From Candidatus Bathyarchaeota archaeon (GTDB lineage Archaea; Thermoproteota; Bathyarchaeia; Bathyarchaeales; Bathycorpusculaceae): DNA of 64,000 nucleotides. Positions 21,221 through 63,391 of the stretch are shown here, piece after piece. The notes beneath the pieces are model-generated. The model saw only the letters and a list, made by a program, of their open reading frames with translations, was not told the DNA's origin and did not search any database. The DNA is taken from assembly GCA_963739305.1 (NCBI GenBank), contig CAVTZU010000009.1:1-64000 (forward strand). The letters run 5' to 3'. Position 1 is the stretch's first letter. Every line of letters starts with the position of its first letter. A program made the position numbers and the translations under genes.

Positions 21221-21339
21221 TGAAGAACCCGTTTGAATAGCATATGAAACCTCGGTCACCTTCATCAACGGGCTCTAGCGCGCGCCTAAAGGAAAAACCC
21301 AAATAACCCTACTCCCTAATTGTAAGCAGGAATTACACG

Positions 21340-22203
21340 ATGAATTTGAACCGTGCGTCATCCCCAGAGAATCCTCCTGCTGCAGACCAGACGCCTGTGC
21401 CTCCAGTACCCAGCAGAAGGTCAAGAAAAAAGATCTTTGCCATCGTAGGAACCATCTCTGTTGTCGCTGTTGCTTTGGCTCTAGTGTTGATGTTTTTGAT
21501 CCCTCCAAGCGTCGAGGAAACAATACCTTTGACCTACAACTACACCCCAGGAGAAGAAATGACTTACAACGTTACTGTGACTGGAACGAGTAGCACTGGA
21601 CAGAACATCTCCACGCCCGTTACAGAGAGTTTAAGCATTAACGTAATCAGTTTCGACGGAGAAAACTACACTATCAACGAGACCATGACGATTTCAATGC
21701 CTTCGGGCGCCCCGATATCGTATAGCTTCACCATGAAGATGAATAAGACTGGATACTCTACGAACCTTAACAGTACCGGTGGGCTCCAATCAGCTTTTTC
21801 CATGTTTGGCAGCTTTTGGCCGTTTGGTCAAGAGACCGAGGCAAAGGTCGGGGAAACAATACAAGTGCCATTGAACGAAACCTCTCCATACTACAGTCTA
21901 AATGGAACGGTAACGTTGAAGTTCGGTGAAATCCAGAACATCACGGTGCCAGCCGGCGAGTACCGAGTCTTCAAGATCGACATCTCAAGCGGCAACATAT
22001 CAATGGTCGTCAACTCACCGGTTTCTGGCAACGTTTCAATTTCGGAAATCTTCTCTTTCAATGGACAAACGTATCTTGAATATGGAACCTGCCGTCTGGT
22101 TGAATCTGAGCTTCAAGAGACGATGGCGATCCAAACGGCCACCATGAATTCTACTCAAAACATGTCTATGCAGATGATGCTCGTTCATCACATCAAAGGC
22201 TAA
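21340..22203 (+). CDS. Membrane-anchored secreted beta-rich hypothetical protein
   Basis: N-terminal TM helix, many sequons, ITVPAGEY motif. Confidence 0.75.
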   Translation: MNLNRASSPENPPAADQTPVPPVPSRRSRKKIFAIVGTISVVAVALALVLMFLIPPSVEETIPLTYNYTPGEEMTYNVTVTGTSSTGQNISTPVTESLSINVISFDGENYTINETMTISMPSGAPISYSFTMKMNKTGYSTNLNSTGGLQSAFSMFGSFWPFGQETEAKVGETIQVPLNETSPYYSLNGTVTLKFGEIQNITVPAGEYRVFKIDISSGNISMVVNSPVSGNVSISEIFSFNGQTYLEYGTCRLVESELQETMAIQTATMNSTQNMSMQMMLVHHIKG

Positions 22204-22282
22204 CGCGCTGCAAAAGAATAAGTAGAATTCACGAATCAGACTGCTTATAGGATCCGACAGTGAGTATTCCTTGTGACAGAAA

Positions 22283-22429
22283 ATGAGAAACACTAAACCA
22301 TTAAGATGCCAAAGATGCGGAAAACCTATTGGCTACGTCACTGTACTAGCGAAAGGCCTAACAGGTCTACAACAACCACTTCAAGACGTGAAGCTTATTG
22401 CCATTTGCCTTGAGTGTTCACAGAAATAG
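22283..22429 (+). CDS. 48-aa CxxC..CxxC zinc-finger microprotein
   Basis: Manual translation: MRNTKPLRCQRCGKPIGYVTVLAKGLTGLQQPLQDVKLIAICLECSQK. Confidence 0.6.
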   Translation: MRNTKPLRCQRCGKPIGYVTVLAKGLTGLQQPLQDVKLIAICLECSQK

Positions 22430-22469
22430 TACACGCTCAGTTTGGGCAGAGTTTCATTCCGAAATGGGC

Positions 22470-22965
22470 CTATGCTTTCGACTGAAGCTTCTTCGTTCTC
22501 CGTTTCATCTCATCAGATAGGTACTCCCAAAACCTGAACATGTTGGCGTTACCTGAATCTTTTCGCATTTCCCCGATAAGCGGTTCAACATCGTCCCAAG
22601 ACGACTCAATTATGTCGCCCCAGAAATCATACACGATGTCCGCTTCAACAAGTCTCCTGAAAACAAGTATACCCATCCCTTCAAAATAGTTCCCAAGTAT
22701 CTTCAACATTTTGTCCTCCTGCTTTCCAGAGTATTTCTCAACGATAATCCGCATAATTCTTGTACTCGATGGAGCAGACCTGAGCTATTGCTTCCTGCAC
22801 CTCTTCGGCGTTCATATTGAACCATGGAGATAGCCGAATGACGCTCTCCGTTTGTCTCAATCTACTCTGGTGCCGAATCTCCAAGACGTAGTACACGACT
22901 CCCGCCAGCACACCCGCAGACGCAATTACGATAGAAACGGTCTGTACGTCAAACATAGCTGACAC
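22470..22965 (-). CDS. DUF4760-like membrane-anchored protein; frameshift near 22742
   Basis: N-terminal TM, NYFEGMGILVFRRLV and FWEYL motifs across two overlapping ORFs. Confidence 0.65.
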
Positions 22966-23265
22966 CCTGACTAAAACGAGAGTGTTGATCTTGACAACTT
23001 AAACTTTTCAGCGAAATTGAAGCCAGTTAGTGAATCTTGAGTGTTCCGCCGACCTGTAGGCGTCAAGTTCAAGAAAGTTGAGGGGTGGCAGGCGAGATTC
23101 TGCGGTAACTCACATTACGGAACTCCATATGTTCACCGAGTACATCTGGGCACCAGCGCGCGCCAACCCATCCTTTACAAGACTATTCGCCGTATTCAGG
23201 TATAGCTTTCCCGGCGCAGTGTTTTTATATCATGCTCTGCCCCGTCTACCTTTGAGGAACGCGCT

Positions 23266-45451: not shown

Positions 45452-45476
45452 CCTTTCTTTTTCTTTTCTTTTTTTG
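45452..45476 (+). terminator. Oligo-T archaeal terminator
   Basis: Pyrimidine/T tract immediately after the stop codon. Confidence 0.5.
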
Positions 45477-45540
45477 CAAAACACATAGTAAACTTTAAAT
45501 TTTCGATTCCAAGAGCGAAGCCTCTTTGGAGAAGATTAAC

Positions 45541-50663: not shown

Positions 50664-50762
50664 TATGAATCACTTCTCCTCTGTCTCCTTTCAATATAAG
50701 CTGAACGCACTCAAGCAGAGAGCTACGAAAACGGTTATTACGGTTTTCAAGGACATGTTCCT

Positions 50763-51989: not shown

Positions 51990-52047
51990 ACAAAGCCGTG
52001 AAGACTTTTCCTCGCAGTAAAGAGTTAGGGACAATGCCCTGTTGGGT

Positions 52048-53440
52048 TTAGGCGTAAAGGTATTTTTGTCTCTCCCAGGCTGTCACTTCGTTTTTGTCTT
52101 TTGTCTCATGCGGTTCGTATTCGAGCCATTCTTGTTTCTTGAGCTGCACGTATTTTTCGGCAGTGTCCTTGCCCAGCGTCTTGATGCAGATGTCGTCCCT
52201 TTGCCATTCCTCTAGAGCTTCTAGGAGTGTCGTGGGCAGGGTCTTGATGTTGGACTCTTTTCGTTGTTCATCGGTCATGTGGTAGATGTTGGATTCCACG
52301 GGGTCGCCTGGGTCGATCTTGTTTTTGAGGCCTTCCATTCCGGCTTCGAGCACCGCTGCATACGTGAGGTAAGGGTTGCAGAGCGGATCAGGGCAGCGAA
52401 ACTCTATACGAGCTTCCATCGGGCTTTCAGGTGAGAAGGCCGGTATGCGAACTAGGGCTGAACGGTTTCTTTTGCTCCACGCGATATAAACGGGGGCCTC
52501 GTAGCCGGGAACAAGTCGCTTGTAACTGTTAACTGTCGGAGCTATTACTGCACAGAGAGCCCGCGCGTGCTCAAGTATGCCACCTATGAAGTACCTGCAT
52601 TCCTGACTGACGTATGCGTAGCCTTCCGAGTCAAAAAACGGATTTTTGCCTTTCTTGGTGTCAGTCAGTCCGAGGTGTATGTGCATCCCGCTGCCAGCCT
52701 TACCGTGCCAGGGCTTGGGCATGAACGTTGCCGTCCACCCGTACTTCTTGTCGGCGACGCCCTTCGTGGCGAACTTGTACCGCATTATCTTGTCAGCCGT
52801 GGTCAGTGGATCAGAGTACTTGAATGTGATCTCGTTCTGGGCTGAGCCTACTTCGTGATGTTCGCGCTCCACCTGAATTCCCATTGTGTTAAGCGTGTTT
52901 GACAATTCCATGCGGTAGGACTCGGTCAAGTCTCTTCCAGGCGCAATGTCGAAGTAGCGCTGCTTGTCGATGAGATGGTTCTCGACGGGGACGACTTCGC
53001 CGTTCTGATCCTTCTGGACCAGGTAGAATTCGAGTTCGGCCGCCGCGGTTGACTCATACCTCCAGTGATCGGATTTTGTCCATTTCTCTTCGGAGGATGT
53101 ATCTGGGGTCGCCTTCAAACTGCGTTTTGTCTGGTCGTTTTATGTCACAGATGAAGCCGGCGACGCTTTTGTCGTAGAAATAGTAGGGGCAAACGATGAA
53201 GGTGGAGGCGTCGGGTTTCATTATCATGTCGCTTTGCTCTATGTTTACGCCACCGAGCATCGAGGATCCGTCGAACGTTACGCCGTCATATAGGGCATTC
53301 TTGGCTTCTTCGGCGGGTATTGTTCTTCCCTTCAGGTAGCCGAGAACGTCAGTAAAGTGTAGAAGGATGTAGTCAGCGTTTTTCGTAAGTCTGAGAGACG
53401 CATCGATGTCTTGTATAGGTTGAGGCTTGACGTATACCAT
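52048..53440 (-). CDS. glnA: Type I glutamine synthetase; frameshift near 53060
   Basis: FDGSS, ELEFY, HHEV..QNEI, TFMPKP, GSGMH, NSYKRLVPGYEAP, NRSALVRIP, RIEFR.PDP. Confidence 0.9.
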
Positions 53441-53576
53441 GATGATTTCACCAGGTCAAATATATAACCAATTCAGAACGCATTGAACATATATAAGGCT
53501 TGTTCCAATTTTGAGAGGCAAACGTTAAATAATTGATTGATTTATTGGATGAATGTTTAGCGGTGGCGAGGTGATT

Positions 53577-54020
53577 ATGAACTTGGATGATACAAATGTC
53601 AAAATACTGAAAGCGTTGTCCGAAGATGCGAGGCTTTCGTCCAGACAAGTTGCCAAACAATGTGACATCTCGATTGGCACAGCATTGGCAAGAACCAAGA
53701 AGATGGAAGAAGAAGGCATAATCAAAGGATACACAGTTCTGCTTGATCAAGAAAAACTGGGCTACGAACTGACCGTTGTGACTGAAATAACGGTCTCGAA
53801 GGGCAGACTTCTGGAAATGGAAAATGAGATAGCGCGAATGCCTAACGTGTGCTGCGTTTACGACTTAACCGGCATGTCAGATGCGGCAATTATTGCGAAG
53901 TTCAAGACTCGTGACGAACTGAGCAGGTTTACGAAGCATCTGCTCTCTCTGCCATACGTGGAAAGGACGAATACGCATGTCGTGTTGACGACGATCAAGG
54001 AGGATTTTCGAATACTCTAG
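53577..54020 (+). CDS. Lrp/AsnC family transcriptional regulator, divergent from glnA
   Basis: LDDTNVKIL..DAR.S..EEEGIIKGY..KLGY, TG.SD, TNTHVVL. Confidence 0.92.
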   Translation: MNLDDTNVKILKALSEDARLSSRQVAKQCDISIGTALARTKKMEEEGIIKGYTVLLDQEKLGYELTVVTEITVSKGRLLEMENEIARMPNVCCVYDLTGMSDAAIIAKFKTRDELSRFTKHLLSLPYVERTNTHVVLTTIKEDFRIL

Positions 54021-54121
54021 GAGCTTCGATAAACACTTACTTTTTTCTCCAATTGTATCAAAATTAATGGGCAAGACTTAATTTAGTCAAAAAGCTACGA
54101 GATAGAGCGACCAGCAAGAAA

Positions 54122-54209
54122 GCGGGGGTTGCCAAGCATGGTCAAAGGCGTAGGCCTGAGGCGCCTATCCTGTAGAGGTTCGTGGGTTCAAATCCCACCC
54201 CCCGCACCA
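54122..54209 (+). tRNA. tRNA-Leu(GAG), CCA encoded
   Basis: Acceptor GCGGGGG/CCCCCGC, anticodon arm TAGGC-CTGAGGC-GCCTA, long variable arm, T-arm GTGGG-TTCAAAT-CCCAC. Confidence 0.93.
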
Positions 54210-54260
54210 TCATTGAAGCGCGCGCGACCATATATTGAGCTTATTTAATCAATTGATTAA

Positions 54261-54554
54261 TTATTTGGGGCTTTGTGGGTAAGATTTGCTTTCAGCTTCT
54301 ATGCCCAGAAAATGCTTTGCCACAACGAGATGCATAGATGGAACTATAGCATGTATAGCGGCAAAGATTGCCAGCAGAAACCAAGATAATGATGTCAAGC
54401 CAAGAGTAGTGTTCAAAGCATCACCAATGATTCCTATAACAGCGAATAGAAAGCTAAGTAACGAACTAACGCCACTAGCCATCGCACATCTTCTAATCTC
54501 AGCTATTACGTGCTCACGGTTCTTGTAAGGTTGGTCTTGTAACATGTTTGCCAT
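54261..54554 (-). CDS. Small two-TM membrane protein
   Basis: Hydrophobic ORF with GGGGTGA SD. Confidence 0.6.
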   Translation of the reverse strand: MANMLQDQPYKNREHVIAEIRRCAMASGVSSLLSFLFAVIGIIGDALNTTLGLTSLSWFLLAIFAAIHAIVPSMHLVVAKHFLGIEAESKSYPQSPK

Positions 54555-54751
54555 ACTGCACATCACCCCCTCTTTTCTTTAATGTCGAGTGAAGTAATGT
54601 CTTTTCGGTTTAGCTATAACTTTTCCGCAAAACCAAAAACTGGCTTTCTCCAAGAAATATGCCTAAAGCGTAGTCCACTAGCTTAGTCTTTAATATTGTC
54701 CTAAGTGATTTTGTCCTTAGGTGTCGAGCACAGGAAACAGGGAGATACACT

Positions 54752-55096
54752 ATGGAGAACGTTGGAAGGCTTGAACAGTTTTGGCACGATTTCGTGAAAG
54801 TTTTCCCCGAGACGGTGGAACTCGAAGGAGCGATTGTCGCTCATTGGCTCCAAATCCCTGTGACTATCTTCAACCATGTCACAAACATCAACGTCACTGG
54901 AGACAGGGCTGAGGTTCTCGTGAAAACGGTCATCAGTCATTTTGCGTCGAAGGGACTACCCTTTGCTTGTTTTCGAGTTTCTCCGTTGACTCTCCCTTCG
55001 TTCATTTCACTCCTTGAGCGTCTCGGCTTTGAGAAGGAGTCAGAGCAATCAAACTCTGTGGAGACTCCTATCTTCGTGTACCTCTACCACCAATGA
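54752..55096 (+). pseudogene. Truncated N-terminal half of a GNAT-like protein
   Basis: FNHV..HF...G.PF..VSP....LLERLGF followed by an abrupt unrelated tail. Confidence 0.5.
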
Positions 55097-55153
55097 GGAA
55101 CCTTTAAACTACTCTAGAAAAAAATGGGATTGTGCGGGAGACATCTCTATTTA

Positions 55154-55180
55154 TCCTGGGTTCAAATCCCAGCGACCGTA
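55154..55180 (+). other. Orphan tRNA 3'-half fragment (tRNA-Gly-like), att remnant
   Basis: CTGGG-TTCAAAT-CCCAG-CGACCG T-arm plus acceptor 3' strand, with no 5' half. Confidence 0.6.
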
Positions 55181-55295
55181 ACGCTGACGTAGGCGCCGTC
55201 GGCGTTTACATTCTCTTTCTGAACAGTTTTCAGTTTTTTGGTTTTGCGGAAAAGTTATAGCCGAACCAAGTAAATAATCAAATTGTGACGCAACG

Positions 55296-55661
55296 GTGAC
55301 TACGCCCGAAAAACCTAGAATCACGTGCAATATCTTGCTTGTTGTCGCGTTTGTAATTGTTTGCTTCATGGTTAATCTAATGTTGTTCTCTCTTGGATAT
55401 TTTAGAGATGCAACTTCGCTTTTTCTCATCGTGTTTGGGTTCGTTGCGGCTATGGTTCTTCTTGTTGTTGCCTATAAGAATCCAATGCGTCCGACTTCAT
55501 TCAGAAGCATGATGAGAAGATATGAACTTGCCTTCATAATCTGCGGAGCATGCTTTGCTCCAGCCATAGCGTTCTTTGGGGGCGGTCTAATTCTCCTTGC
55601 AATATTACCCTACTTAAATATTCCATCTCGTCCTCCAAAAATATTTTTCCGCAGGCGCTAA
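55296..55661 (+). CDS. Small four-TM membrane protein
   Basis: Hydrophobic 121-aa ORF. Confidence 0.6.
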   Translation: MTTPEKPRITCNILLVVAFVIVCFMVNLMLFSLGYFRDATSLFLIVFGFVAAMVLLVVAYKNPMRPTSFRSMMRRYELAFIICGACFAPAIAFFGGGLILLAILPYLNIPSRPPKIFFRRR

Positions 55662-56043
55662 TCTTGTTTGGGTTTAGATGAAGAACTCGAACCTATTCAT
55701 GAATTGGGCGACACCGTTCGCAATCTGTATGAAAGCCTCAATCCCATAGCCCATCTGCGAGAATACGAGACTAATCTGCAAGCCTTGACAGAAAGCCTTA
55801 TTGATCAATGCCAAATCTACTTGCTCAAACTCTTGGAATTCCGAACCAAATACTTCAGAAGTTAGCCGGCGCGCGCGCAATGGTAGCCCGGGAGTTACCG
55901 TTCCCAGATTGTAATTTATACCAAAATCCCTTTTTTATTTCGCTCACGTGTCTGCCTCTTCCGAGCGCGCGCTACTTCTTGCTATATCGTTGGGTTACCG
56001 GCTGAAGGTAATGTTTCTTCTTTGATTTTTTCAACGCAGAGCT

Positions 56044-57339
56044 CTATGTTCCGGCGGGGTTGAGCATTTCTCCCATGAACAGGATTGAGCCTGAGCGGTC
56101 GTCCCTGATTTCATAGTAGAACGGTCTATTGACCACAAAACTGGGCGGGGTTCCTGGTCCAATTGCTGTTATGCCTACGCCTACGCTAGTAACTGCAGCT
56201 GCTTCGGTCCCTTCTTCATTTACTTCAACAACAGCTTTGTGGTCCACGTACGAAACGTACAGATTTCCTGAGGCTGTTGATGCGATGCCCGTGAAGTTGG
56301 CTTGGTCAGGGTCAAATGCTATTCCCATGCCCAAGTTATTTAGAACGCCGTTGAGACGTTTCGTACCGTACTCCACTTGAAATTTCGGCATCTTGACTAT
56401 AAGGTCTTCTAGGGGCTGAAGTCTGCTGACGTATCCGTCGTGAACAGTCTGGTTCAGGCCGGTGACAAACGAGTCGAGAGAAACACCTTCCTTCGGCAAG
56501 AAAATGTACATTGCGACTTTGTCTCTTCCGTAGGGCAGTCTTGCTATTTCACAGTTCTCGCCTGAGTAGTAACTGAAGTTGCTCGAAGTGGTCATCATGT
56601 CAACCTTTACGTGGCTTCCGTCACCCAAGAAGAAGTCCTGCTGCTGCGTCTTGACCTTGTCGAATTCTGTTGTCCATGTCCCCTTGAAGTATATCGCGTT
56701 GATCAGAAGCATCACCAGCTCAGGGCTCAGGTTGTTCATTATCTGTTTTATCTTGCCCGCGGTTTGCTTGTTTACCCAATCGTTGATTTCGTTAACAGTC
56801 TGGAGACTACTAAAATCGCGCGTAAACATCTCGCTGTCATACGAGGTTCCCACACTATGCAGGAAACTTGGTTTGACAAAGGGCTCAAACTCCTGCTTCA
56901 TCCAAACCGAGTTACTGATCAGCAGCTTCACTGCTTGGTCAACGTTCTCCAGGCTCTGTATCAAAGCCGAGTATTCTTGGTTTATCTCTTCCAAAGTCAT
57001 GTTTCCAAAATTGAGAGTCTTCGCCATCGCGTCTCTGGTCGTACCTTCTGCGCCGTTGTAGAGCATTGCCAAAGCTATCGAGACGCTAAGAGGAGAAATG
57101 AAAACGTTTGTGTTCGTATCCTCAGTGAGAAGCATCTTGAACAGGTCAAAGGCAAACTTTGTGTTTGCTGAGACTAACTTCGGGTCGACAGAATAGGCTT
57201 TTTCGTCAGATGTGGCATACGCTGAATTCGAGACGCTTCTCAGATAATAGACCAGCGTTACGTAACTGACCAGAATAATAGATACTAACGCTAATGATAT
57301 TACGATCAGCTTTCGATTTCCAACGGCACGCTTCCGCAC
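56044..57339 (-). CDS. Serpin with N-terminal membrane anchor
   Basis: NVFISPLS, INDWV..T.GKI, NAIYFKG.W, PKF, hinge EEGTEAAAVT, F.VNRPF. Confidence 0.94.
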   Translation of the reverse strand: MRKRAVGNRKLIVISLALVSIILVSYVTLVYYLRSVSNSAYATSDEKAYSVDPKLVSANTKFAFDLFKMLLTEDTNTNVFISPLSVSIALAMLYNGAEGTTRDAMAKTLNFGNMTLEEINQEYSALIQSLENVDQAVKLLISNSVWMKQEFEPFVKPSFLHSVGTSYDSEMFTRDFSSLQTVNEINDWVNKQTAGKIKQIMNNLSPELVMLLINAIYFKGTWTTEFDKVKTQQQDFFLGDGSHVKVDMMTTSSNFSYYSGENCEIARLPYGRDKVAMYIFLPKEGVSLDSFVTGLNQTVHDGYVSRLQPLEDLIVKMPKFQVEYGTKRLNGVLNNLGMGIAFDPDQANFTGIASTASGNLYVSYVDHKAVVEVNEEGTEAAAVTSVGVGITAIGPGTPPSFVVNRPFYYEIRDDRSGSILFMGEMLNPAGT

Positions 57340-57464
57340 AGACTATCCCCGAATAGGACACTTGAGGTTCGCTGTATTTAGTTCTAAGCGTCAGAACATA
57401 CAGTTCCAAGAGTTAGAACAGGGTCTTACCACGCGCGCGCGAAGTGGGAAACTAACGCGCTCTC

Positions 57465-58124
57465 TTATTTTGAGCTCGGTCTGGGCAGGAGGTATGTCTC
57501 TGCAGGCACTGACCCGTATATCTTCTTGATAAGTCGCAACCCCGACTTCTGATTCAGGGTTGGCTTCCAATAACTTGCTAACAGCTCTCGCGCTTTCACG
57601 TTTCCGCTGCCAATCGCCCAGGCGTCACACTCGGTCTGAGACCCCAACACGTCTATGTCAGCAATCTTCTGGACTCCGCCATCAAACCCTCCGAGGAGAA
57701 CGAAGAGAGCAAGCGGTCGCTTGACCGTGCTCACCGCGTGCTCGTGGAGGATGTCCCGAATCCTGCGAGCGGCATCCCTGAATGTCTGGGTGTCCTGACT
57801 CGTAAGCATATCATGAACATGGAACATGTCTCCTATATTGCCAGTGGCCACGAACGCCAACGATTGGGCCACATGCCAGATCGAAGGAATTCCTCTCCCC
57901 AATTCTGTCTTGACAGAACCTTTCCCTTTGGCCAAAATCAGTCCATCCAACGTCTTCATCGCGACAGCGAGGTTTCCGCCTGATGGGCACTTCCGAGCCC
58001 ACTCCACCTGGAGTAGTCTCCCTTCTGGCGTGAACATACCGGGCTTGGCAAAATCCATCGAGTCTTCGGGAAGCGGCGGGTTCTTGCTCGGTGTTCCGAT
58101 GCGCGATTTTGTCCTACCCATCAA
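57465..58124 (-). CDS. Divergent proteasome alpha-subunit-like (Ntn-fold) protein
   Basis: MFTPEGRLLQVEWA, G..AVAMKT.DG.ILA, G..GD, RPL....LLGG.D, D..GS, AIGSG. Confidence 0.75.
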   Translation of the reverse strand: MMGRTKSRIGTPSKNPPLPEDSMDFAKPGMFTPEGRLLQVEWARKCPSGGNLAVAMKTLDGLILAKGKGSVKTELGRGIPSIWHVAQSLAFVATGNIGDMFHVHDMLTSQDTQTFRDAARRIRDILHEHAVSTVKRPLALFVLLGGFDGGVQKIADIDVLGSQTECDAWAIGSGNVKARELLASYWKPTLNQKSGLRLIKKIYGSVPAETYLLPRPSSK

Positions 58125-58189
58125 ATTTACCAGTTGAATGAATGCGTAGCCGCGCTATTTCAGCTTTTTCTGGCGCGCGCTTTTGCCTG

Positions 58190-58633
58190 CTATTTTTCGC
58201 AGAACCGTTTTGGAACTCTGAAATTCGTTGCAATGTCAGATGGACGGCCATACGGCTTGATGTCCAGAACCGGAGTCCTATCAAGAGCGTCAAGACCTCT
58301 TACCCAAAGAACATTTTCTTCACGTTTAACAAGCTCTACCAAAGTCAAACCGATAGGATTCGGACGAATTGGGCCCCTGCATGCAAGAACCCCTACAGAT
58401 GGTGTTTCTGCTCTACCTTCACTATGAACTGACCTTCTTTGAGCATTCGATATCTTGTGCATCCAATATATAATGAAAACGTGGGAAAACTCTTCAACGC
58501 CGTCCAGAGCTTTGACAAGATTTTTCTTGAGCATTATCTTTGAAACAAGGCTTTTGTCTCTGACATTCTCATCAGATGATGTACGTCTAACAAAACCTAT
58601 AGGCTTGATTTCAATCTTCTTTAAAGCCGACAA
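58190..58633 (-). CDS. tsaA: TrmO/TsaA family tRNA m6t6A methyltransferase (slightly degenerate)
   Basis: IKPIGFV, LDGVEEFSH, RPNPIGL, GLDALD.TPVLDIKPY; probable TTG start at 58633. Confidence 0.82.
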   Translation of the reverse strand: MSALKKIEIKPIGFVRRTSSDENVRDKSLVSKIMLKKNLVKALDGVEEFSHVFIIYWMHKISNAQRRSVHSEGRAETPSVGVLACRGPIRPNPIGLTLVELVKREENVLWVRGLDALDRTPVLDIKPYGRPSDIATNFRVPKRFCEK

Positions 58634-58703
58634 CGCTACCACGACAACAATAAGGTATCCTGAAGTAAGATAACTGTTTTTTTCGCGCATCTGTCGCGCG
58701 CGC

Positions 58704-58837
58704 CTGCCTATTCCTTGTCCCTGATGCTTTTTTGCGACATCGAGTTCTTCTATCGCAAAATTGTCTTTTTTCTGTGCGAAATATACAAATCCAATGGGCT
58801 TCTGACTCATTTCTGCAACGAAAACATTTTGTCCTGA
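58704..58837 (-). pseudogene. Internal fragment of a GNAT acetyltransferase
   Basis: NVFVAE..KPIGF..IEELDVAKKHQGQGIGR (motif A), bounded by CG runs on both sides. Confidence 0.75.
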
Positions 58838-59061
58838 GCGCGCGCGAAAGCTGTTGTCTTAGTTGCATCAGAAACTTTGCGGTTTCACTTGTCGATGGAA
58901 CAAAACCCTTCAGTTCTTCTCCGTGTATAGAGTTGCGCGCGCTACTTCTTCAAAGTCTCTTTGAACAGTTCAATGGGACAGTAGTTCTTGTAGTGCGCGC
59001 GCTGAAATCTTATAGGACTTTCGTACATTAACAGGAGTTTGCGGTCAGGAGGTGATAAGTC

Positions 59062-59397
59062 GTGATTGAGAAGGTATGTCATATTACCTTTCCTGTTTCG
59101 GATCTGAAAAAGGCCGTGTTTTTCTATGAAAATATCCTTGAGCTTAAAAAGACTGGCGAATGGTCCAATTATGCAACCTTTGATGTTGGAGGAGTGCAGT
59201 TTGGTCTTGAACCATCAAAGAGGTTTGAGATTTTTCTGCTTGTGGACGATGTTGACAGGGCCTATCGGGATCTCAAGGCGAAAGGGGTTGAATTCACGAC
59301 GGAGCCAAAAGATCAGCATTGGGGTGCTCGAGCAGCAACATTCATGGACCCTGACGGAAACAAGTTCACCATAGAAACTTTCAAGAAAGACAAATAG
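59062..59397 (+). CDS. VOC/glyoxalase family protein
   Basis: HITFPVSDLKKA..FY..L, VDDVD..Y..LK..GV, WG.R..F.DPDGN. Confidence 0.9.
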   Translation: MIEKVCHITFPVSDLKKAVFFYENILELKKTGEWSNYATFDVGGVQFGLEPSKRFEIFLLVDDVDRAYRDLKAKGVEFTTEPKDQHWGARAATFMDPDGNKFTIETFKKDK

Positions 59398-59652
59398 CAT
59401 CCACCTGAAAACTGGAAAGGAAAGTAGCAAGAGACTCCCATGCTCCGCACCTTTTTTAGGCCAAGAGCTTGAACGTCGTCCTCACTCGGATTTCATGATA
59501 GCCCGGGAAAGTTTCGAACTTTCGCCAAACATAATCTGAGCATATTTTTACTGGTAAAGTCGGGTGGGGGGTCCCACCCACGCACTTCAAAACAGACCCA
59601 CAATTGTTTTGAAGCGCGCCTTGTCAGTTCGTGTAATGAACTTCTTTGTTTC

Positions 59653-60828
59653 TTATCTTGTCATCATTCTTCTGAAAACGGGCACTGCGATTGCGATCAT
59701 GATTGCTCCGAACACTATCATCACTGCAAGCTCAGTTGTTATGTCAGGTATTCCTGCGCCTAAAACCATGACTTTTCTCAGGGCTTGCGATGCATAGGTC
59801 AGAGGAAGCACTTTTGAGATGTCTTGCATGTACCACGGCATCTGTTGTACCGGGAAGAACACTCCGCTGAGAAACATCATTGGAAACATAAGCGTCATCA
59901 TCATCATCTGCGCCGTCTCCTGGTCTTTGGCAAAGGACGTTATTACGATGCCCAAGCCGACGAAGCTAAACACGCCTAAGAGCAACAACGCGAAGACGAG
60001 CACTATGCTTCCTTGAATTGCAACGTGGAACAAGACAGTTGCCAGCACCAAGATGACGACTCCTTGCAGCAAGCCTCTTGCAGTCTGACCCAGAGTTTTC
60101 CCAAGTATAATCGAAAGCCTGTTGATCGGCGCAACCATCATTCCGTCCAAAGTTCCAACTTCCTTCTCCTGCGATATTGCCACAGGAAGCCCTGTCATGA
60201 CGCTCATCATCACAGTCATCGCCATTATCCCCGGAGCGATAAAGTCAAAGTAACTGGGGGTCCCGGATACAACTCCCACAGTCTGAACACTGTAAGGCTT
60301 CACGGCCGCTAGGCCTGTTTGATTTAGCCTCTGAAGAGCTAAAGCTGTTCCCATTTGATCAAATACAGCTGACAAAGCTGCCTGAATGGTTGCCGACACC
60401 TGCGGGTTAGACTGGTCAATTACGATGATCAGGGTACCTTGTTGACCGGCCACGATACTTGCAGTGAAATTGCTAGGGATGATTATGCCGCCTTCAATAT
60501 CGCCTTTCTGAACCAGGCTCCTGATGTCGTCAGCACTCGTTGCATTGGAAAGAACGAAAGTGTCTGTCATGTTGTTGATATGTTGAAATGCCATCGTGAA
60601 ATTCTGTCCAAAGAAAATAGAATTGCCATAACCAGCATCTTCGTTTGCGAGTGCAACAGGCAAGTTCGTCGGTAAGCTGTTGCCAGATGGATAAATGAAG
60701 CCGACCATGACCATCATGAACAAAGGCATCAGAACAAGCAGGACTAACCCGAGCCGATTCCGATACAGCTCCGTCAAATCTTTCCAAGCAATCCTGAAAG
60801 TGTGCGAAACTAGAGTCTTTGCACCCAT
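59653..60828 (-). CDS. ABC-2 type permease
   Basis: EKEVGTL...AP, FLSGVFFP..MP, PLTY. Confidence 0.9.
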   Translation of the reverse strand: MGAKTLVSHTFRIAWKDLTELYRNRLGLVLLVLMPLFMMVMVGFIYPSGNSLPTNLPVALANEDAGYGNSIFFGQNFTMAFQHINNMTDTFVLSNATSADDIRSLVQKGDIEGGIIIPSNFTASIVAGQQGTLIIVIDQSNPQVSATIQAALSAVFDQMGTALALQRLNQTGLAAVKPYSVQTVGVVSGTPSYFDFIAPGIMAMTVMMSVMTGLPVAISQEKEVGTLDGMMVAPINRLSIILGKTLGQTARGLLQGVVILVLATVLFHVAIQGSIVLVFALLLLGVFSFVGLGIVITSFAKDQETAQMMMMTLMFPMMFLSGVFFPVQQMPWYMQDISKVLPLTYASQALRKVMVLGAGIPDITTELAVMIVFGAIMIAIAVPVFRRMMTR

Positions 60829-60834
60829 AATGGG

Positions 60835-61860
60835 TCACCTTCCCCTCCCTTGCTGAGGCGCTCCAAAGTGACGACGACCCATCGCCATCGGTATCTTTTG
60901 GTCTGCGCTATCTCTTACCTCGTGACCAGTTATGTGCAAGAACACATCCTCAAGAGTAGGCTGAGGATTTTCCATAGAATTTATCTTTCCGCCTTTCTCC
61001 CTCACAGCGTCAATTACTGAGTCGAACGCCTCATCGCCGTGGGCAATGATTCTCAAATGGGTAGAATTCTCTTGAGAAACTGCATCCGTGCACTTGCACG
61101 CCCGGATTGCCTCAATAATACCGGGTGATAAGTTTCCAATCTCTAGGTTCAGTATTGTCGTGTCCTTTCCAGAAATGAGCCTCTTTAAATTCGTAGACGT
61201 GTCAAGCGCAACAATTTTGGCATGGTCCATAATGCCTATGCGATCACACAGCAAATCGGCATCGACCATCATATGCGTCGTTATAAGAATTGTGGTCTTA
61301 TTTTCTCTATTGAGTTTCTTTATGAACTCTCTAATCTCAACAGACGATTGAGGATCCAAACCCAGAGTTGGCTCATCCAAGAATAGCACCTGAGGCATGT
61401 TGAGCAGAGCCCGTATCACGTTCATCCTCTGTCGCATGCCAGTGGAAAACGTTCCCACCTGAGCATTCTTCCATTTGGTAAGTTGAACCAGCTCCAGCAG
61501 GTCATCAATTCTCTTCATCAAGACGCTTTTAGGAATGTTGAAGAGATTTCCGAAGAAGATCAAGTTCTCTTTAGCCGTCAGTCGATTGTACATAATCATC
61601 TTTTCGGAAACGATTCCTATCAGTTTCCTCACTTCATTATCGTTCTTCACTATGTCGTAACCGCCAATCGTGGCAGTTCCCTTTGTTGGCCTGGCTAATG
61701 TGGAGAGCACTCTTAACGTCGTACTCTTACCAGCTCCGTTGGGACCGAGCAGACCGAAAATCTCGCCTTTCTTCACGTCGAAGGAGATGCTGTCGACCGC
61801 CACGAAATCGCCGAAAGCCTTCGTCAAGTTTTTAATCTCAATTATTGGATCATTTTCCAA
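60835..61860 (-). CDS. ABC transporter ATP-binding protein (DrrA-like)
   Basis: GPNGAGKST, FSTGMRQR, FLDEPT, TTH, PTLEDVFL..TG; probable TTG start at 61860. Confidence 0.92.
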   Translation of the reverse strand: MENDPIIEIKNLTKAFGDFVAVDSISFDVKKGEIFGLLGPNGAGKSTTLRVLSTLARPTKGTATIGGYDIVKNDNEVRKLIGIVSEKMIMYNRLTAKENLIFFGNLFNIPKSVLMKRIDDLLELVQLTKWKNAQVGTFSTGMRQRMNVIRALLNMPQVLFLDEPTLGLDPQSSVEIREFIKKLNRENKTTILITTHMMVDADLLCDRIGIMDHAKIVALDTSTNLKRLISGKDTTILNLEIGNLSPGIIEAIRACKCTDAVSQENSTHLRIIAHGDEAFDSVIDAVREKGGKINSMENPQPTLEDVFLHITGHEVRDSADQKIPMAMGRRHFGAPQQGRGR

Positions 61861-61932
61861 GAGACCATCACCGAGAGATATTGTTCGGTGCAATATATCG
61901 TAGTAAAATATAAATATTCCGATTATATTCAG

Positions 61933-62595
61933 ATGCGAAAGATGAACCCAAAACGCAGTGAAGACGAAATAACTGCTGGGCACTGGCTCAAGGAAACGCA
62001 GAAGGGCTACATACGTATTGCGGCGCTGATTCTTCTAAGCAAAAGGCCGTATCACGGCTATGAAATAATGAGAGAGATCAAAGAAAGAACCATGGGTTTT
62101 TGGAGACCCACCGCTGGCGGCATCTATCCCATACTTCGAAACCTAGAAGATTCCAGATACATCGAGGGAAAATGGGAGGTTCAGAAGAAAAGAAAAAGAA
62201 AGATATTTCGAATCACCGAGGCGGGCAAGCAGGTTTTACAGCGGTCTCTGGCCAAAGAGAATCAAATTGCCAATAGCATGACCGGCCTATTCACAGAATT
62301 CATGAAAAGCGTGTTGGACGTAGAGAAGACCGTTTCAATCCCAAGAATACCGAACCTTTTCTCAGTCTTCCTTGAAGAGAGAAAAGAAAAACCAGAAGAC
62401 ACGAAGAACGTCTTAGAAAGCAAGCGCAAACAGATTGAGAAAATGATAAAAGAGTTACAGAAAGAGCTAGCGGCAATCAACAGAAGAGTAGCCCAACTAG
62501 AACGTCTTGAACAGAAAACAATACATTTAGCAAGAGTTCAAGGTTCACACGATAACACGAGAATCACTGTTTTTGGAGCAACCGGTCGCGCATAA
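61933..62595 (+). CDS. PadR family regulator with a foreign C-terminal tail
   Basis: PYHGYEIM..I, PTAGGIYPIL..LE, RKIFRITEAG. Confidence 0.88.
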   Translation: MRKMNPKRSEDEITAGHWLKETQKGYIRIAALILLSKRPYHGYEIMREIKERTMGFWRPTAGGIYPILRNLEDSRYIEGKWEVQKKRKRKIFRITEAGKQVLQRSLAKENQIANSMTGLFTEFMKSVLDVEKTVSIPRIPNLFSVFLEERKEKPEDTKNVLESKRKQIEKMIKELQKELAAINRRVAQLERLEQKTIHLARVQGSHDNTRITVFGATGRA

Positions 62596-62624
62596 CTTAC
62601 ATACACCGGTTCTGCTAAGTTGAA

Positions 62625-63125
62625 TTATCTACTTTCCTGCAGGCGCGCACGCGCTTCAGCGATCTCGAGCGAGTGCAGGATTAGAATTAAAGCAAGAAAA
62701 GCCGTGAACCCCAGAATTATGGCTATTACAAGCATGAAACGTCCTGCTAGGCATATGTTGTTATACGCAGCAGGATACGATATCTCAAAGCCTACTAAGC
62801 CCACGCCTAAAAAACTAAACAGGAAAAATATTCCGGAAGCACAAATCAATCCGGCAAAGAGCAAAACTCCTCTTTTCCAATTATTTGCCGCATACGTCAG
62901 CCAGAAACCAATGCAAACGCACACGAGGACTGTCACCAAAAGCCCTACATCAATTGCCACACTGGGTCCTGGAGGAGCCTGATCAGACTGATATAGAATT
63001 GCATAGACGAGGAAAGAAGCGAGGATCACAAGCGCAATTAGCAGTGGTACGAGAATTGTTCTACGTTTTCTGTTCCCTGGTTCTGCCAACATGCTGAAAA
63101 CCTCCAGGGGGTCGCAACTATTCAT
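62625..63125 (-). CDS. Multi-TM hypothetical membrane protein
   Basis: Four hydrophobic segments. Confidence 0.65.
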   Translation of the reverse strand: MNSCDPLEVFSMLAEPGNRKRRTILVPLLIALVILASFLVYAILYQSDQAPPGPSVAIDVGLLVTVLVCVCIGFWLTYAANNWKRGVLLFAGLICASGIFFLFSFLGVGLVGFEISYPAAYNNICLAGRFMLVIAIILGFTAFLALILILHSLEIAEARARLQESR

Positions 63126-63391
63126 TTGAGGCTATGTTGTACAAGTGGCTGTCGGTGTGGAGCGCACGCGAAAATACTTTCTGAGAACGTCGAGGTTGTC
63201 ACCATAATACGTTAGCCAATAACTCAGCAAGACGCCTACACGCAAATACGTTTAAGAGTAAATTCGGATTATTTCAGACTAGAGGAGACAGATCATCTGG
63301 AGGACACAAACTCGGGATCATGCCTTTGTCTCTTCCTGATTTCACCCCGACAAAGAGAATGACCTGAACGATTCTGAGGAGAAATTGAAAT

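What the first reader, a model, noticed from the sequence alone, without database searches (positions are those of the whole stretch)
54218..59619. Candidate new gene-cassette system: modules delimited by alternating CG runs downstream of tRNA-Leu
Seen: nine (CG)4-5 runs in 4.8 kb (54218, 55869, 55965, 57432, 58173, 58695, 58838, 58935, 58995) plus GCGCGC at 59614. A rough expectation at 45-50% GC is ~0.1, and I saw no run of 8 nt or more inside conserved genes. The runs partition the DNA into one-gene modules (serpin | proteasome-alpha-like | TrmO | GNAT fragment | 88-bp open fragment | 52-bp gene 3' end | VOC). The first run is 9 nt after the tRNA CCA. GCGCGCGCTACTTCTT occurs identically at 55965 and 58935. 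No integrase, transposase or attC is present. Inference: an integron-like or microhomology-driven capture/deletion system using CG runs (palindromic, Z-DNA-prone) as crossover sites.
Basis: partly seen in the sequence, partly recalled or inferred. Interest (0 to 1): 0.85.

Follow-up and report, generated by a model that had tools for sequence, protein, structure and literature searches.

The report
Palindrome GCGCGCGC marks archaeal gene-module junctions
The CG runs are real and belong to a genus-wide pattern in a group of Bathyarchaeia, where the 8-base palindrome GCGCGCGC sits at the joints of gene-sized DNA modules that are gained, lost and swapped between strains and species.

Summary
In detail: nine alternating CG runs of 8-10 nt lie between 54218 and 59002, against about 0.1 expected. 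They are not a local oddity. The genome (a Bathyarchaeia MAG) holds 351 such runs. The core is the phase-specific palindrome GCGCGCGC, often flanked by A/T. It is 14-16 times over-represented genome-wide and 25-60 times in intergenic DNA, and 81% of runs lie outside genes. All 10 other genomes of the genus are rich in it. The other genera searched hold almost none, apart from one genome of another family (G024) with 53.

The runs mark flexible DNA. In strain-variant contigs of this MAG, a 4.2-kb insert is flanked by two runs where the empty site has one, and a segment between two runs is replaced. In relative G001 the whole island is absent and a single run stands between tRNA-Leu and the ABC gene. 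Homology of the island's modules to relatives ends exactly at the runs. In 120 kb compared across three species, 0 of 38 runs lie inside conserved blocks, 11 sit on block edges and 27 lie in lineage-specific DNA.

Best reading: recombination at the palindrome shuffles gene modules. This is cassette-like but not an integron, and the enzyme is unknown. Passive microhomology remains a serious rival.

The parts
54122..54209 (+). tRNA-Leu(GAG). It is the conserved left anchor of the island. GlnA, Lrp/AsnC and tRNA-Leu are syntenic in the relative L001.
54218..54226 (.). Run 1, GCGCGCGCG, the left border of the island. G001 has one run at this place, directly followed by the ABC gene. G002 and G008 have no run after their tRNA-Leu.
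54227..55868 (.). Module 1, a composite. It holds a small membrane-protein ORF at 54261-54566(-), ORF 54752-55096(+), a tRNA-like 3' half at 55115-55181, a membrane ORF at 55296-55661(+) and ORF 55668-55865(+). A 33-nt promoter-like inverted repeat lies at 54607-54639 and 55235-55267. Pieces match scattered places in G009, G005 and G002 at 81-88% identity.
55869..55878 (.). Run 2, GCGCGCGCGC, 3 nt after the stop of ORF 55668-55865.
55879..55964 (.). 86-nt spacer fragment. Positions 55877-55940 are multi-copy in G004 and G002.
55965..55972 (.). Run 3, GCGCGCGC, followed by TACTTCTT as at run 8.
55973..57431 (-). Serpin module (gene 56044-57339). 73% DNA identity to G005:C12, in a different context.
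57432..57441 (.). Run 4, CGCGCGCGCG. G004 has a run at the matching place downstream of its proteasome-like gene.
57442..58172 (-). Proteasome-alpha-like module (gene 57465-58124). Homology to G004:C22 and G002:C36 (85-86%) spans 57468-58172 and stops at run 5.
58173..58180 (.). Run 5, GCGCGCGC, exactly where homology switches from one relative's block to another's.
58181..58694 (-). TrmO module (TrmO_N domain; its ATG at 58688-58690 lies 4 nt from run 6). 93% identity to G009:C20 over 58173-58696, that is, from run to run.
58695..58703 (.). Run 6, CGCGCGCGC, the joint between the TrmO 5' end and the GNAT fragment.
58704..58837 (-). Internal fragment of a GNAT acetyltransferase gene. It is open in one frame and ends just after the GQGIG motif.
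58838..58846 (.). Run 7, GCGCGCGCG.
58847..58934 (.). 88-nt fragment, open in two frames. No other copy was found in G000, and a genus-wide DNA search gave only one weak 29-nt match (G006, E 3.5e-4).
58935..58942 (.). Run 8, GCGCGCGC. Its first G completes a TAG stop on the minus strand.
58943..58994 (-). 52-nt 3' end of a gene (...ELFKETLKK-stop). 83% identity to G005:C7, where GCGCGC stands near the same end.
58995..59002 (.). Run 9, GCGCGCGC.
59003..59613 (+). VOC/glyoxalase module (gene 59062-59397; 84% identity to G009:C12), plus a multi-copy element at 59489-59586 and a hairpin at 59581-59618.
59614..59619 (.). GCGCGC, the right border of the island. Homology to the G001, G002, G005 and G008 ABC block starts at 59633-59649.
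59640..62595 (-). ABC-2 permease, ABC ATPase and a small regulator-like ORF. The block is 85-93% identical to four relatives, against 70-77% for other window genes, so it is probably itself a recently exchanged block.
21278..23163 (.). The window's two other runs (21278-21285 and 23156-23163). They lie inside a 2.45-kb insert (21221-23671) between two genes that are adjacent in G001, G002, G005 and G008.

Best explanation
The runs are copies of a genus-specific iterated palindrome with core GCGCGCGC and consensus (t)A-GCGCGCGC-T(a). It acts as the joint at which gene-sized modules are inserted, deleted and exchanged. Each module is a gene or a few genes with their own promoters, or the remnant of one, and a run stands at each junction. 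Breakage and rejoining, or crossover, between two runs removes what lies between them and leaves one run. The reverse reaction, or exchange with incoming DNA that carries runs, adds or replaces a module. Repeated rounds leave short gene fragments between closely spaced runs. The 5.4-kb stretch after tRNA-Leu is one such mosaic of about ten pieces.

Shown: the motif, its distribution, its restriction to non-conserved DNA, and that indel, replacement and homology-block borders fall on it. Inferred: that the reaction is directed by a sequence-specific protein (nuclease or recombinase) encoded elsewhere in these genomes or their mobile elements. The grounds are the fixed 8-nt word, the symmetric A/T flanks, the on/off distribution among genera and the 25-60-fold intergenic excess. 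No such protein was identified.
For: 1. Motif. There are 351 runs of 8 nt or more in 2.317 Mb. The run-length histogram has a bump at 8-10 nt: 202, 96 and 48 runs, against 150 at 7 nt and only 5 above 10 nt. GCGCGCGC occurs 359 times against 22-26 expected genome-wide, and 283 times against 4.6-11.4 expected in intergenic DNA under order-1 and order-2 models. The order-3 intergenic figure is 42, but that model absorbs part of the motif. Among runs of exactly 8 nt, 178 are GCGCGCGC and 24 are CGCGCGCG. The flanks are A (63%) at -1 and T (73%) at +1.

2. Location. 65 of 351 runs lie in called genes although 82% of the genome is coding. 32 inter-run gaps are under 150 nt against 7 expected.

3. 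Lineage. All 10 other genomes of the genus hold 29-464 copies. Among the 20 genomes of other genera, 19 hold 0-14 and one holds 53.

4. Strain level, inside this MAG. The empty site in C3 has one run; C2 has a 4.2-kb two-gene insert flanked by a run on each side. C13 and C17 carry different genes between the same two run sites. A third indel lies between two GCGCGC.

5. This island. G001 has tRNA-Leu, then one run, then the ABC gene. Homology of the TrmO block (58173-58696) and the proteasome-like block (57468-58172) to relatives ends at the runs.

6. Species level. In 120 kb of G001 compared with G002 and G008 (about 80-99% identity), 38 runs were examined. None lies inside aligned block cores, which hold 53% of bases and 43% of intergenic bases (P = 2.5e-8). 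Eleven lie on block edges, a zone of 1.2% of bases where 0.45 are expected (p = 6e-13). Twenty-seven lie in unaligned DNA. Shared modules carry a run at their end in both genomes, with unrelated DNA beyond it.

7. Within G000. 34 of 1202 paralogue HSP ends lie within 2 nt of a run, against 4.9 +/- 2.7 for matched random sites (largest 16 in 500 trials). 7 of 72 contig ends have a run within 150 nt, against about 1.6 expected.
Against: No enzyme was found. No integrase or transposase lies in the island. PF01797 (Y1 transposase, the RAYT family) was found in 0 of 31 genomes. PF00145 was found in only 3 of 31 genomes, and PF01555 is present almost everywhere, so neither tracks the motif.

Three of nine strain-level indels are bounded by a roughly 17-25-nt promoter-like repeat rather than by runs, and three by neither. 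Generic short-repeat recombination therefore operates in these genomes.

Some junctions have a run on one side only, or only a 6-nt or mismatched version. The 13-kb mosaic in G001 (L155) sits in a site that has no run in G002 or G008, and its nearest runs are 9 and 33 nt from the junctions.

In the coarser G001-versus-G000 comparison, the excess of runs at broken adjacencies over conserved ones is only 2-3-fold per kb (3 runs in 8.2 kb against 63 in 63.7 kb).

Three of the six G001 chunks in the 120-kb test were chosen because they were run-rich. Gene calls are my own crude ORF caller. Direction (insertion or deletion) cannot be read from pairs of states.
Confidence: 0.55

Rival explanations
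1. Passive microhomology. The runs have no dedicated machinery. Any short repeat between genes can mediate slippage, single-strand annealing or end-joining. Deletions that happen to run from one intergenic repeat to the next survive because they remove whole genes cleanly. The run is simply the commonest such repeat in this gene pool and is spread by the transfer of modules that carry it.
For: Three of nine strain-level indels are bounded by a promoter-like repeat and not by runs. One G001/G008 indel has an 8-nt ATGATCAG microhomology. Junction runs vary (6, 8, 9 or 10 nt, or mismatched). One G001 run looks like the fusion of a CGCGCG and a CGC that flank a 129-nt segment in G008. An empty site with one run opposite an occupied site with two is what deletion between direct repeats gives. 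No enzyme was found.
Against: It does not explain why one phase-specific 8-mer with symmetric A/T flanks is 25-60 times over-represented in intergenic DNA and confined to one genus. It does not explain why runs longer than 10 nt are almost absent, although out-of-register pairing should make them. It does not explain runs at junctions where neither partner sequence in relatives has one. Replacement of one gene set by another between the same two sites needs gain as well as loss, or two independent deletions.
Confidence: 0.25
2. Terminal signature of a mobile-element family. The runs come in with the DNA. Modules are cargo units with palindromic ends, like transposase-less mobile insertion cassettes moved in trans, or they are pieces of a plasmid or virus pool in which the motif is abundant for its own reasons. 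The runs then mark what was imported rather than where the host genome recombines.
For: In the 120 kb compared, 0 of 38 runs lie in DNA shared between species. Run-rich 20-kb chunks are mosaics or have no counterpart at all in G002 and G008. Runs appear at junctions whose counterparts in relatives lack any run. Small multi-copy elements are flanked by runs or by GCGCGC. Nested insertion of run-ended units would explain gene fragments lying between runs. The densest cluster (C26:12624-15284) adjoins an integrase-like ORF and a tRNA-like end.
Against: There are no conserved terminal sequences beyond about 2 nt from the run and no consistent target duplication. The empty site in C3 already holds a run. 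No transposase family was tied to the motif, and PF01797 was found in 0 of 31 genomes. I did not search virus or plasmid collections for the motif.
Confidence: 0.13
3. A regulatory or structural gene-boundary signal, such as a terminator, an insulator or a binding site for a chromatin protein. On this reading the motif lies between genes for functional reasons and only coincides with breakpoints because breakpoints are intergenic.
For: The distance from a stop codon to a run peaks at 0-30 nt. Runs avoid the first 40 nt upstream of start codons. Density is highest between convergent genes (1.06 against about 0.6 per kb). 10 runs overlap a TAG stop codon.
Against: None of 38 runs lies in conserved aligned DNA between species, although 43% of the intergenic bases examined are in such DNA. 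Only 2 of 112 spacers between gene pairs that are also adjacent in G000 hold a run. Runs flank promoters as often as gene ends and bound gene fragments and non-coding repeats. No T-run follows them. Breakpoints fall within 2 nt of runs far more often than at matched intergenic positions.
Confidence: 0.05
4. Artefact: chimeric library or assembly joins at GCGC-type sites.
For: Contig ends are enriched near runs: 7 of 72 ends against about 1.6 expected. The MAG mixes strains, with 7.8% contamination.
Against: The motif is abundant in all 10 other assemblies of the genus, including a single-contig genome, and in the named MAG L001. Logan contigs span every junction of the island. An 8-10-nt repeat is far below assembler k-mer sizes (my own knowledge).
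Confidence: 0.02

Closest known systems
HIP1, the highly iterated palindrome GCGATCGC of cyanobacteria
   Same: It is an 8-bp GC-rich palindrome, many-fold over-represented in a lineage-specific way, with rapid gain and loss among lineages. It has been linked to site-specific and illegitimate recombination and serves as the insertion site of a small repeat (passages of PMC4390886; passages of PMC5861425). Its function is still debated; the abstract of PMC13756078 proposes a DNA-uptake role.
   Different: HIP1 is abundant in coding as well as non-coding DNA and is conserved between related genomes (PMC5861425). Here, 81% of runs lie outside genes and 0 of 38 lie in DNA conserved between species. 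HIP1 goes with the methyltransferases DmtA and DmtC. Here PF00145 was found in only 3 of 31 genomes and not in G000 or G001. The host here is an archaeon and the word is different.
Integron gene cassettes (IntI, attI, attC)
   Same: Arrays of one-gene modules separated by short recombination sites. Cassettes are gained, lost and reordered at those sites, and the modules carry no recombinase of their own.
   Different: There is no adjacent integrase. There is no attC-like imperfect hairpin, since complementarity stops 2 nt from the run. The modules have their own promoter-like sequences and lie in both orientations. The sites are dispersed over the whole genome rather than forming one array. 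The defining features of integrons are taken from my own knowledge and from abstracts listed.
dif/pdif modules of Acinetobacter plasmids (recalled from memory, not checked in any call)
   Same: Cargo-only gene modules bounded by short host-recombinase sites and found in many contexts.
   Different: Those sites are 28-bp XerC/XerD sites with two arms and a spacer. Here only an 8-12-bp palindrome is conserved. No link to XerA was tested.
REP/REPIN elements moved by RAYT transposases
   Same: Short, GC-rich, palindromic, intergenic and highly iterated in a lineage-specific way (abstracts of PMC3116915 and PMC3337134, listed).
   Different: No Y1/RAYT gene was found in any of 31 genomes. The motif is 8-12 bp with no stem-loop, and the units between copies are genes rather than REP doublets.
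DNA uptake sequences and Chi sites
   Same: Over-represented short words tied to DNA exchange or recombination (PMC4390886).
   Different: As far as I recall, those words are spread over core genes and Chi is oriented. This motif is a palindrome restricted to flexible DNA and lies at the junctions themselves.

Membership tests
Integron | Tyrosine integrase (IntI) gene next to the array | tested here: not met
   Pfam on 10 ORFs of 53553-60828 shows no recombinase. PF00589 matches in G000 lie elsewhere, the nearest at 26210-26404.
Integron | attC sites: imperfect inverted repeats of about 60-140 nt that fold as hairpins at each cassette end | tested here: not met
   Around 172 exact 8-nt sites, left-right complementarity is at chance level from the third flanking base outward. 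No conserved flank was found.
Integron | Mostly promoterless cassettes in one orientation behind a common promoter | tested here: not met
   The modules lie on both strands. Promoter-like BRE/TATA repeats stand in front of two ORFs. The 4.2-kb insert holds two convergent genes.
Highly iterated palindrome (HIP1-like) | An octamer palindrome many-fold over-represented genome-wide in a lineage | tested here: met
   359 observed against 22-26 expected. It is the top CG-only 8-mer against a median of 13. Genus-wide distribution.
Highly iterated palindrome (HIP1-like) | Motif copies conserved at orthologous positions between related genomes, in coding and non-coding DNA | tested here: not met
   0 of 38 runs lie inside blocks aligned between G001 and G002/G008. 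Only 65 of 351 lie in genes. At the strain level (93% identity or more), 41 of 44 are unchanged.
Highly iterated palindrome (HIP1-like) | Co-occurrence with a methyltransferase that recognises the inner bases | tested here: inconclusive
   PF00145 was found in 3 of 31 genomes and not in G000 or G001. PF01555 is present in 28 of 31 regardless of motif count. Specificities cannot be read from sequence, and no methylation data were available.
REP/REPIN-RAYT | A RAYT (Y1 transposase) gene in genomes that carry the repeat | tested here: not met
   PF01797 was found in 0 of 31 genomes, while the control genomes gave hits.
tRNA-targeted integrative island | Integrase at one end and a direct repeat of the tRNA 3' end at the far border | tested here: not met
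   No integrase is present. The only tRNA-like repeat (55154-55178, 84% to the T-arm) has a different acceptor strand and lies 974 nt away, not at the far border.
MITE / mobile insertion cassette | Conserved terminal inverted repeats of 10 nt or more, and a target-site duplication | tested here: inconclusive
   The palindrome could serve as both ends, but nothing beyond about 10-12 bp is conserved and no regular duplication was seen.
Intrinsic terminator | A stem-loop followed by a T-run, or an archaeal oligo-T tract, at gene 3' ends | tested here: not met
   There is no T-run after the runs and no stem beyond the run. Runs also lie upstream of genes. No transcript data were examined.

The most novel reading that the evidence does not exclude
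A whole archaeal genus runs a distributed cassette-exchange system. A sequence-specific nuclease or recombinase, not yet identified, recognises the 10-12-bp palindrome (t)AGCGCGCGCT(a) and cuts and rejoins DNA there. Promoter-to-terminator gene modules, and their debris, are thereby excised, inserted and swapped at hundreds of sites per genome and between species. Functionally this would be an integron spread over the chromosome, without attC hairpins or a linked integrase. It would also be the first iterated palindrome for which the role as a recombination joint can be read directly from genome comparisons.
Probability: 0.35. Interest if true: 0.9.

Novelty: new variant of a known kind. Interest (0 to 1): 0.78.

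Why it matters
Iterated palindromes such as HIP1 have been known for three decades without an agreed function. In this case the comparisons show directly what happens at the sites: gene-sized DNA comes and goes there.

If a dedicated enzyme exists, it would be a new way for archaea to organise their flexible genome and to trade genes within a genus. It would also be a possible 8-12-bp-specific tool enzyme.

If no enzyme exists, this is still a clean natural example of how one short intergenic word can channel gene gain and loss so that neighbouring genes stay intact.

For Bathyarchaeia, which are abundant in sediments and peat and are known largely from metagenome-assembled genomes (my own knowledge), the motif gives a simple sequence marker for flexible DNA. 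It also explains why assemblies break where they do.

Tried and rejected
- attC-like or longer palindromic structure around the runs: none.
- A longer conserved element around the runs, such as a MITE: none in 694 flanks.
- TAG stop codons as the reason for the TA flanks: only 10 runs overlap a called TAG stop.
- Methyltransferase link, as for HIP1: PF00145 was found in 3 of 31 genomes and PF01555 is present nearly everywhere. No correlation.
- RAYT/IS200-type transposase: PF01797 in 0 of 31 genomes.
- ncRNAs: Rfam at E up to 0.1 on 53500-60000 found only the tRNA.
- Paralogues of the small fragments (GNAT piece, 88-nt piece, 52-nt piece and spacers) within G000: none by tblastx or blastn. Within the genus there were only a 47-nt match in G005 and a 29-nt match in G006.
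- The roughly 30-nt repeat at 54607 and 55235, which I first suspected to be a recombination site: it reads as a shared BRE/TATA-type promoter in front of two small membrane-protein ORFs. The promoter reading is my own, from the sequence.
- The G001-versus-G000 adjacency test: these two genomes are too diverged (239 of 411 genes have a homologue) to separate broken from conserved spacers sharply. I therefore turned to G001 versus G002 and G008.
- Read laying: all four runs are Logan contigs, so they say nothing about rare variants. Single-contig joints at 58850->59009 (run to run, side 28) and 58150->58190 are too weak to count. Runs X5 and X7 from other studies hold only pieces at 90-97% identity.
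- Literature: no paper in the held library contains GCGCGCGC together with 'intergenic' and 'archaea', and none of the papers listed treats the motif in archaea. Supplementary files were not opened. The octamer tables of PMC5861425 and PMC13756078 could list other palindromes, but both studies cover cyanobacteria only, as far as their abstracts and the passages I read show.
- Not attempted: a scan of virus or plasmid collections for the motif; phyletic profiling of all proteins; structure or complex prediction.

Full report
WHAT IS THERE. Reading 53800-60200 and scanning for alternating C/G runs confirms nine runs of 8-10 nt at the stated coordinates and GCGCGC at 59614. The window has only two more runs of that length, at 21278 and 23156. 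CGCGCGCG alone occurs 6 times in the window against 0.87 expected from shuffles. tRNA-Leu(GAG) ends at 54209. The island is flanked by Lrp/AsnC and GlnA on the left and by an ABC-2 transporter on the right. The organism is a Bathyarchaeia archaeon; the nearest named record, L001, is a 'Candidatus Bathyarchaeia' MAG with 80% GlnA identity.

THE RUNS ARE A GENOME-WIDE, GENUS-WIDE WORD.
- The window is G000:C9:1-64000 in a 2.317-Mb, 36-contig MAG.
- The genome has 351 runs of 8 nt or more.
- The run-length histogram falls geometrically from 4 to 6 nt (7678, 1752, 398). It then shows 150, 202, 96 and 48 runs at 7, 8, 9 and 10 nt, and only 5 above 10 nt.
- Among runs of exactly 8 nt, 178 read GCGCGCGC and 24 read CGCGCGCG. 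The 8:9:10 proportions fit an 8-nt core extended by chance. That fit is my own arithmetic on the counts.
- GCGCGCGC occurs 359 times against 22-26 expected from Markov models of order 1-3. In intergenic DNA it occurs 283 times against 4.6 (order 1) or 11.4 (order 2). In genes it occurs 65 times against 10-21.
- The base next to the core is A on the left in 109 of 172 sites and T on the right in 126 of 172. The second base out leans to T and A. From the third base outward there is neither conservation nor left-right complementarity.
- With a crude ORF-based gene call (2354 genes, 82% coding), only 65 of 351 runs lie in genes.
- Runs are commonest 0-30 nt after stop codons, rare in the 40 nt before start codons, and densest between convergent genes.
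- They are clustered: 32 gaps under 150 nt against 7 expected. Several other clusters match the island, for example C26:12624-15284 with 8 runs.
- All 10 other genomes of the genus hold 29-464 copies, including a single-contig genome (G001) with 464. Of the 20 genomes of other genera in the order, 19 hold 0-14 and one (G024) holds 53.
- The motif also stands near the tRNA-Leu of L001.
- These points, together with Logan contigs of runs X1 and X4 that cross every junction of the island (one study, possibly the source sample), rule out an artefact.

THE ISLAND COMPARED WITH RELATIVES.
- In L001, only GlnA, Lrp and tRNA-Leu are shared; nothing beyond the tRNA matches.
- A DNA search of the genus with 50000-64000, followed by my own blastn on the fetched loci, shows the island's pieces scattered over different contigs of different relatives.
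- The alignments end at the runs. The TrmO block matches G009 at 93% from 58173 to 58696, that is, from run 5 to run 6. The proteasome-like block matches G004 and G002 at 85-86% from 57468 to 58172 and stops at run 5. G004 has its own run at the place of run 4.
- In G001, the 3' half of tRNA-Leu is followed after 5 nt by one 9-nt run, and one base later by the 3' end of the ABC permease gene. The whole 54227-59613 stretch is missing there, and a single run stands at the empty site.
- In G002 and G008 the tRNA-Leu has no run after it. It is followed by sequence homologous to the start of module 1. The ABC block there continues into another ABC ATPase gene, again without a run. So the G001 junction carries a run that neither alternative neighbourhood has.
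- The window's other two runs lie in a 2.45-kb insert between two genes that are adjacent, with run-less spacers, in the three relatives whose spacers were read (G001, G005 and G008). G002 shows the same adjacency in the hit table.
- Of the window's 11 runs, none lies inside a block shared with a relative. This is my reading.

STRAIN-LEVEL EVENTS INSIDE THE MAG. The MAG holds overlapping contigs at 95-99% identity, that is, co-assembled strains (contamination 7.8%). I read nine indels or replacements from these overlaps.
- C3 has ...GTA[GCGCGCGC]TGGGCAG.... C2 has the same flanks with a 4.2-kb insert between two runs. The insert holds two convergent genes for secreted, dockerin-type proteins (my reading of the sequences).
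- C13 and C17 hold different genes between the same two run sites: two PEF-CTERM beta-helix proteins against one 938-aa ATPase/TPR protein (again my reading).
- C6 and C9 differ by 774 against 19 nt between two GCGCGC.
- Three further events are bounded by a promoter-like repeat (GGGGTAAAGTTTTATCC and variants), and three by neither.
- So 3 of 9 events are run-bounded. This is a very large excess for a motif that covers about 0.3% of the genome, but runs are not the only crossover sites.
- Runs that lie inside strain-level alignments are stable: 41 of 44 are identical in the partner, counted in both directions, and the three differences are single-base changes (two substitutions and one 1-nt indel).
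- Genome-wide, 34 of 1202 ends of paralogous HSPs fall within 2 nt of a run, against 4.9 +/- 2.7 for random sites matched for genic or intergenic status (largest 16 in 500 trials).
- 7 of 72 contig ends have a run within 150 nt, against about 1.6 expected.

SPECIES-LEVEL TEST. G001, G002 and G008 are 89-95% identical over syntenic blocks. I fetched the first 400 kb of G001 and compared six 20-kb chunks with G002 and G008. The chunks were L142-L144 around the tRNA-Leu site, and L136, L137 and L155, chosen because they hold many runs (my own blastn).
- Of 38 runs in these 120 kb, none lies inside an aligned block core, although the cores hold 53% of all bases and 43% of intergenic bases (P = 2.5e-8 for the 31 intergenic runs).
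- Eleven lie within 12 nt of a block end, a zone of 1.2% of the bases where 0.45 are expected (p = 6e-13).
- Twenty-seven lie in DNA with no counterpart. The two runs in the matching G008 segments are also at block edges.
- Among 11 indel or rearrangement loci in the 60 kb around tRNA-Leu, 5 have a CG run of 6 nt or more at or in the junction in at least one genome. Of the other six, one is a 9.8-kb element with a 9-nt direct repeat, one shows an 8-nt microhomology, and the rest show no repeat at the junction. This is my reading.
- The run-rich chunks are mosaics of 0.3-2.5-kb pieces that match scattered places in the other two genomes, or they have no match at all.
- Shared pieces often carry a run at their end in both genomes, with unrelated DNA beyond it. 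Decayed versions such as GCGAGCGC also occur.
- The coarser G001-versus-G000 test points the same way but weakly. Runs occur in 2 of 112 spacers between gene pairs adjacent in both genomes, in 10 of 71 where both genes have homologues that are not adjacent, and in 43 of 227 where at least one gene has no homologue. Per kb the figures are 0.37, 0.67 and 1.12.

HOW IT MOST LIKELY WORKS.
- What is shown: the runs mark DNA that has turned over since these species split, and the borders of gained, lost or replaced segments fall on them to the nucleotide.
- The simplest mechanism is breakage and rejoining, or crossover, between two copies of the palindrome. Between direct neighbours it deletes a module and leaves one copy. 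With incoming or excised DNA that carries a copy, it inserts or replaces a module. Because the site is a palindrome, orientation is free.
- Repeated rounds, and insertions into earlier modules, would leave the short fragments seen at 58704-58994 and in other clusters.
- I infer that a sequence-specific protein directs the reaction. The grounds are the fixed, phase-specific 8-nt word, the symmetric A/T flanks, the near absence of longer runs, the 25-60-fold intergenic excess and the on/off pattern among genera.
- Against this inference: no enzyme was found, other short repeats are also used, and many junctions are imperfect. Passive microhomology therefore remains a strong rival.
- A third possibility is that the runs are the end-signature of an imported element pool.
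- A plain regulatory signal is unlikely, because the runs are missing from conserved intergenic DNA.

COMPARISON WITH WHAT IS KNOWN.
- The nearest known thing is HIP1 of cyanobacteria. It is an over-represented octamer palindrome with reported links to site-specific and illegitimate recombination and to small-repeat insertion (passages of PMC4390886). But HIP1 is conserved between genomes, frequent in genes and tied to methyltransferases (passages of PMC5861425; abstract of PMC13756078). None of these holds here.
- In effect the motif works like integron cassettes or dif modules, but it fails the integron definition on the integrase, the attC structure and cassette orientation.
- REP/RAYT is excluded by the absence of Y1 transposases.
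- A survey of prokaryotic genomes reports that Z-DNA-prone patterns are generally suppressed (abstract of PMC4060949), so the excess here is unusual.
- I found no paper on this motif in archaea. Supplements were not seen.

VERDICT. The phenomenon is genus-wide, not a tRNA-Leu-linked system and not an integron. The mechanism (dedicated enzyme or microhomology) is open. I rate it a new variant of a known kind, an iterated palindrome that acts as a cassette junction, and of high interest.

Noticed in passing
window 52048-53440 (-): The glutamine synthetase gene is split into two overlapping ORFs in different frames (52048-53118, 356 aa, and 53054-53440, 128 aa). Relatives have one open frame of about 455-515 aa. 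This is a frameshift, a pseudogene or an assembly error. A second GlnA-like gene lies on C28.
   Followed up: partly
window 54607-54639 and 55235-55267: A 33-nt inverted repeat (94% complementary) that reads like a BRE/TATA promoter facing outward to two small membrane-protein ORFs. It gives 16 blastn matches of 20-36 nt in G000 and many in the genus. In G001 the copies form arrays spaced about 600 nt apart (near 2031208 and 2237311).
   Followed up: partly
window 55115-55181; also G000:C13:153195-153242 and C26 near 10870: A tRNA-like 3' half (T-arm plus acceptor strand) that is not part of any predicted tRNA. The C13 copy starts directly after a run. A similar tRNA-like 3' end abuts an integrase-like ORF at C26:10877-11962, next to the densest run cluster. 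These may be att remnants of integrase-borne elements.
   Followed up: partly
G000 contigs C2/C3/C6, C7/C31/C8, C12/C21/C1, C13/C17, C16/C22, C23/C35/C29 and others: The MAG contains overlapping contig ends at 95-99% identity, so two or more strains were co-assembled. This fits its 7.8% contamination estimate. Contigs tend to break at variable junctions.
   Followed up: yes
window 59640-62595: The ABC-2 permease, ATPase and small-regulator block is 85-93% identical to G005, G002, G001 and G008, while other genes of the window are 70-77% identical to the same genomes. This suggests recent exchange of the block within the genus.
   Followed up: partly
G000 C8:6376-9042 vs C30; C2:12159-12751 and C2:10483-11678 vs C3: Strain-level indels of 0.6-2.7 kb are flanked by a promoter-like direct repeat (GGGGTAAAGTTTTATCC and variants). 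This is a second class of short intergenic repeat at indel borders.
   Followed up: partly
G001:C1:156489-166260 (positions 36489-46260 of the joined L142-L144): A 9.8-kb segment present in G001 but absent from G002 and G008, flanked by a 9-nt direct repeat (ATGCTTATA). It is probably an integrated element with a target duplication. One run lies 169 nt inside its left end.
   Followed up: no
L142:3068-3280 (G001) and G000:C18:31163-31396: Small multi-copy non-coding elements of about 200-230 nt. The G001 element has about 20 copies listed in G002 and about 9 in G008, and its copy in L142 is flanked by GCGCGC on both sides. The G000 element on C18 has at least four further copies and is flanked by GCGCGCGC on both sides, while its copies elsewhere have decayed or missing runs. 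Rfam was not run on them.
   Followed up: partly
window 59581-59618: A 14-nt inverted repeat with a 10-nt loop, whose 3' arm overlaps the GCGCGC at 59614. It is a possible terminator hairpin at the island's right border.
   Followed up: no
window 55880-55893 and 59495-59508: A short direct repeat (ATGGTAGCCCGGGA and ATGATAGCCCGGGA). Each copy starts a stretch (55877-55940 and 59489-59586) that is multi-copy in G004, G002 and G008. The first follows run 2 directly.
   Followed up: no
window 26210-26404 (+): A partial tyrosine-recombinase (PF00589) match in an open frame of 208 aa, 28 kb upstream of the island.
   Followed up: no
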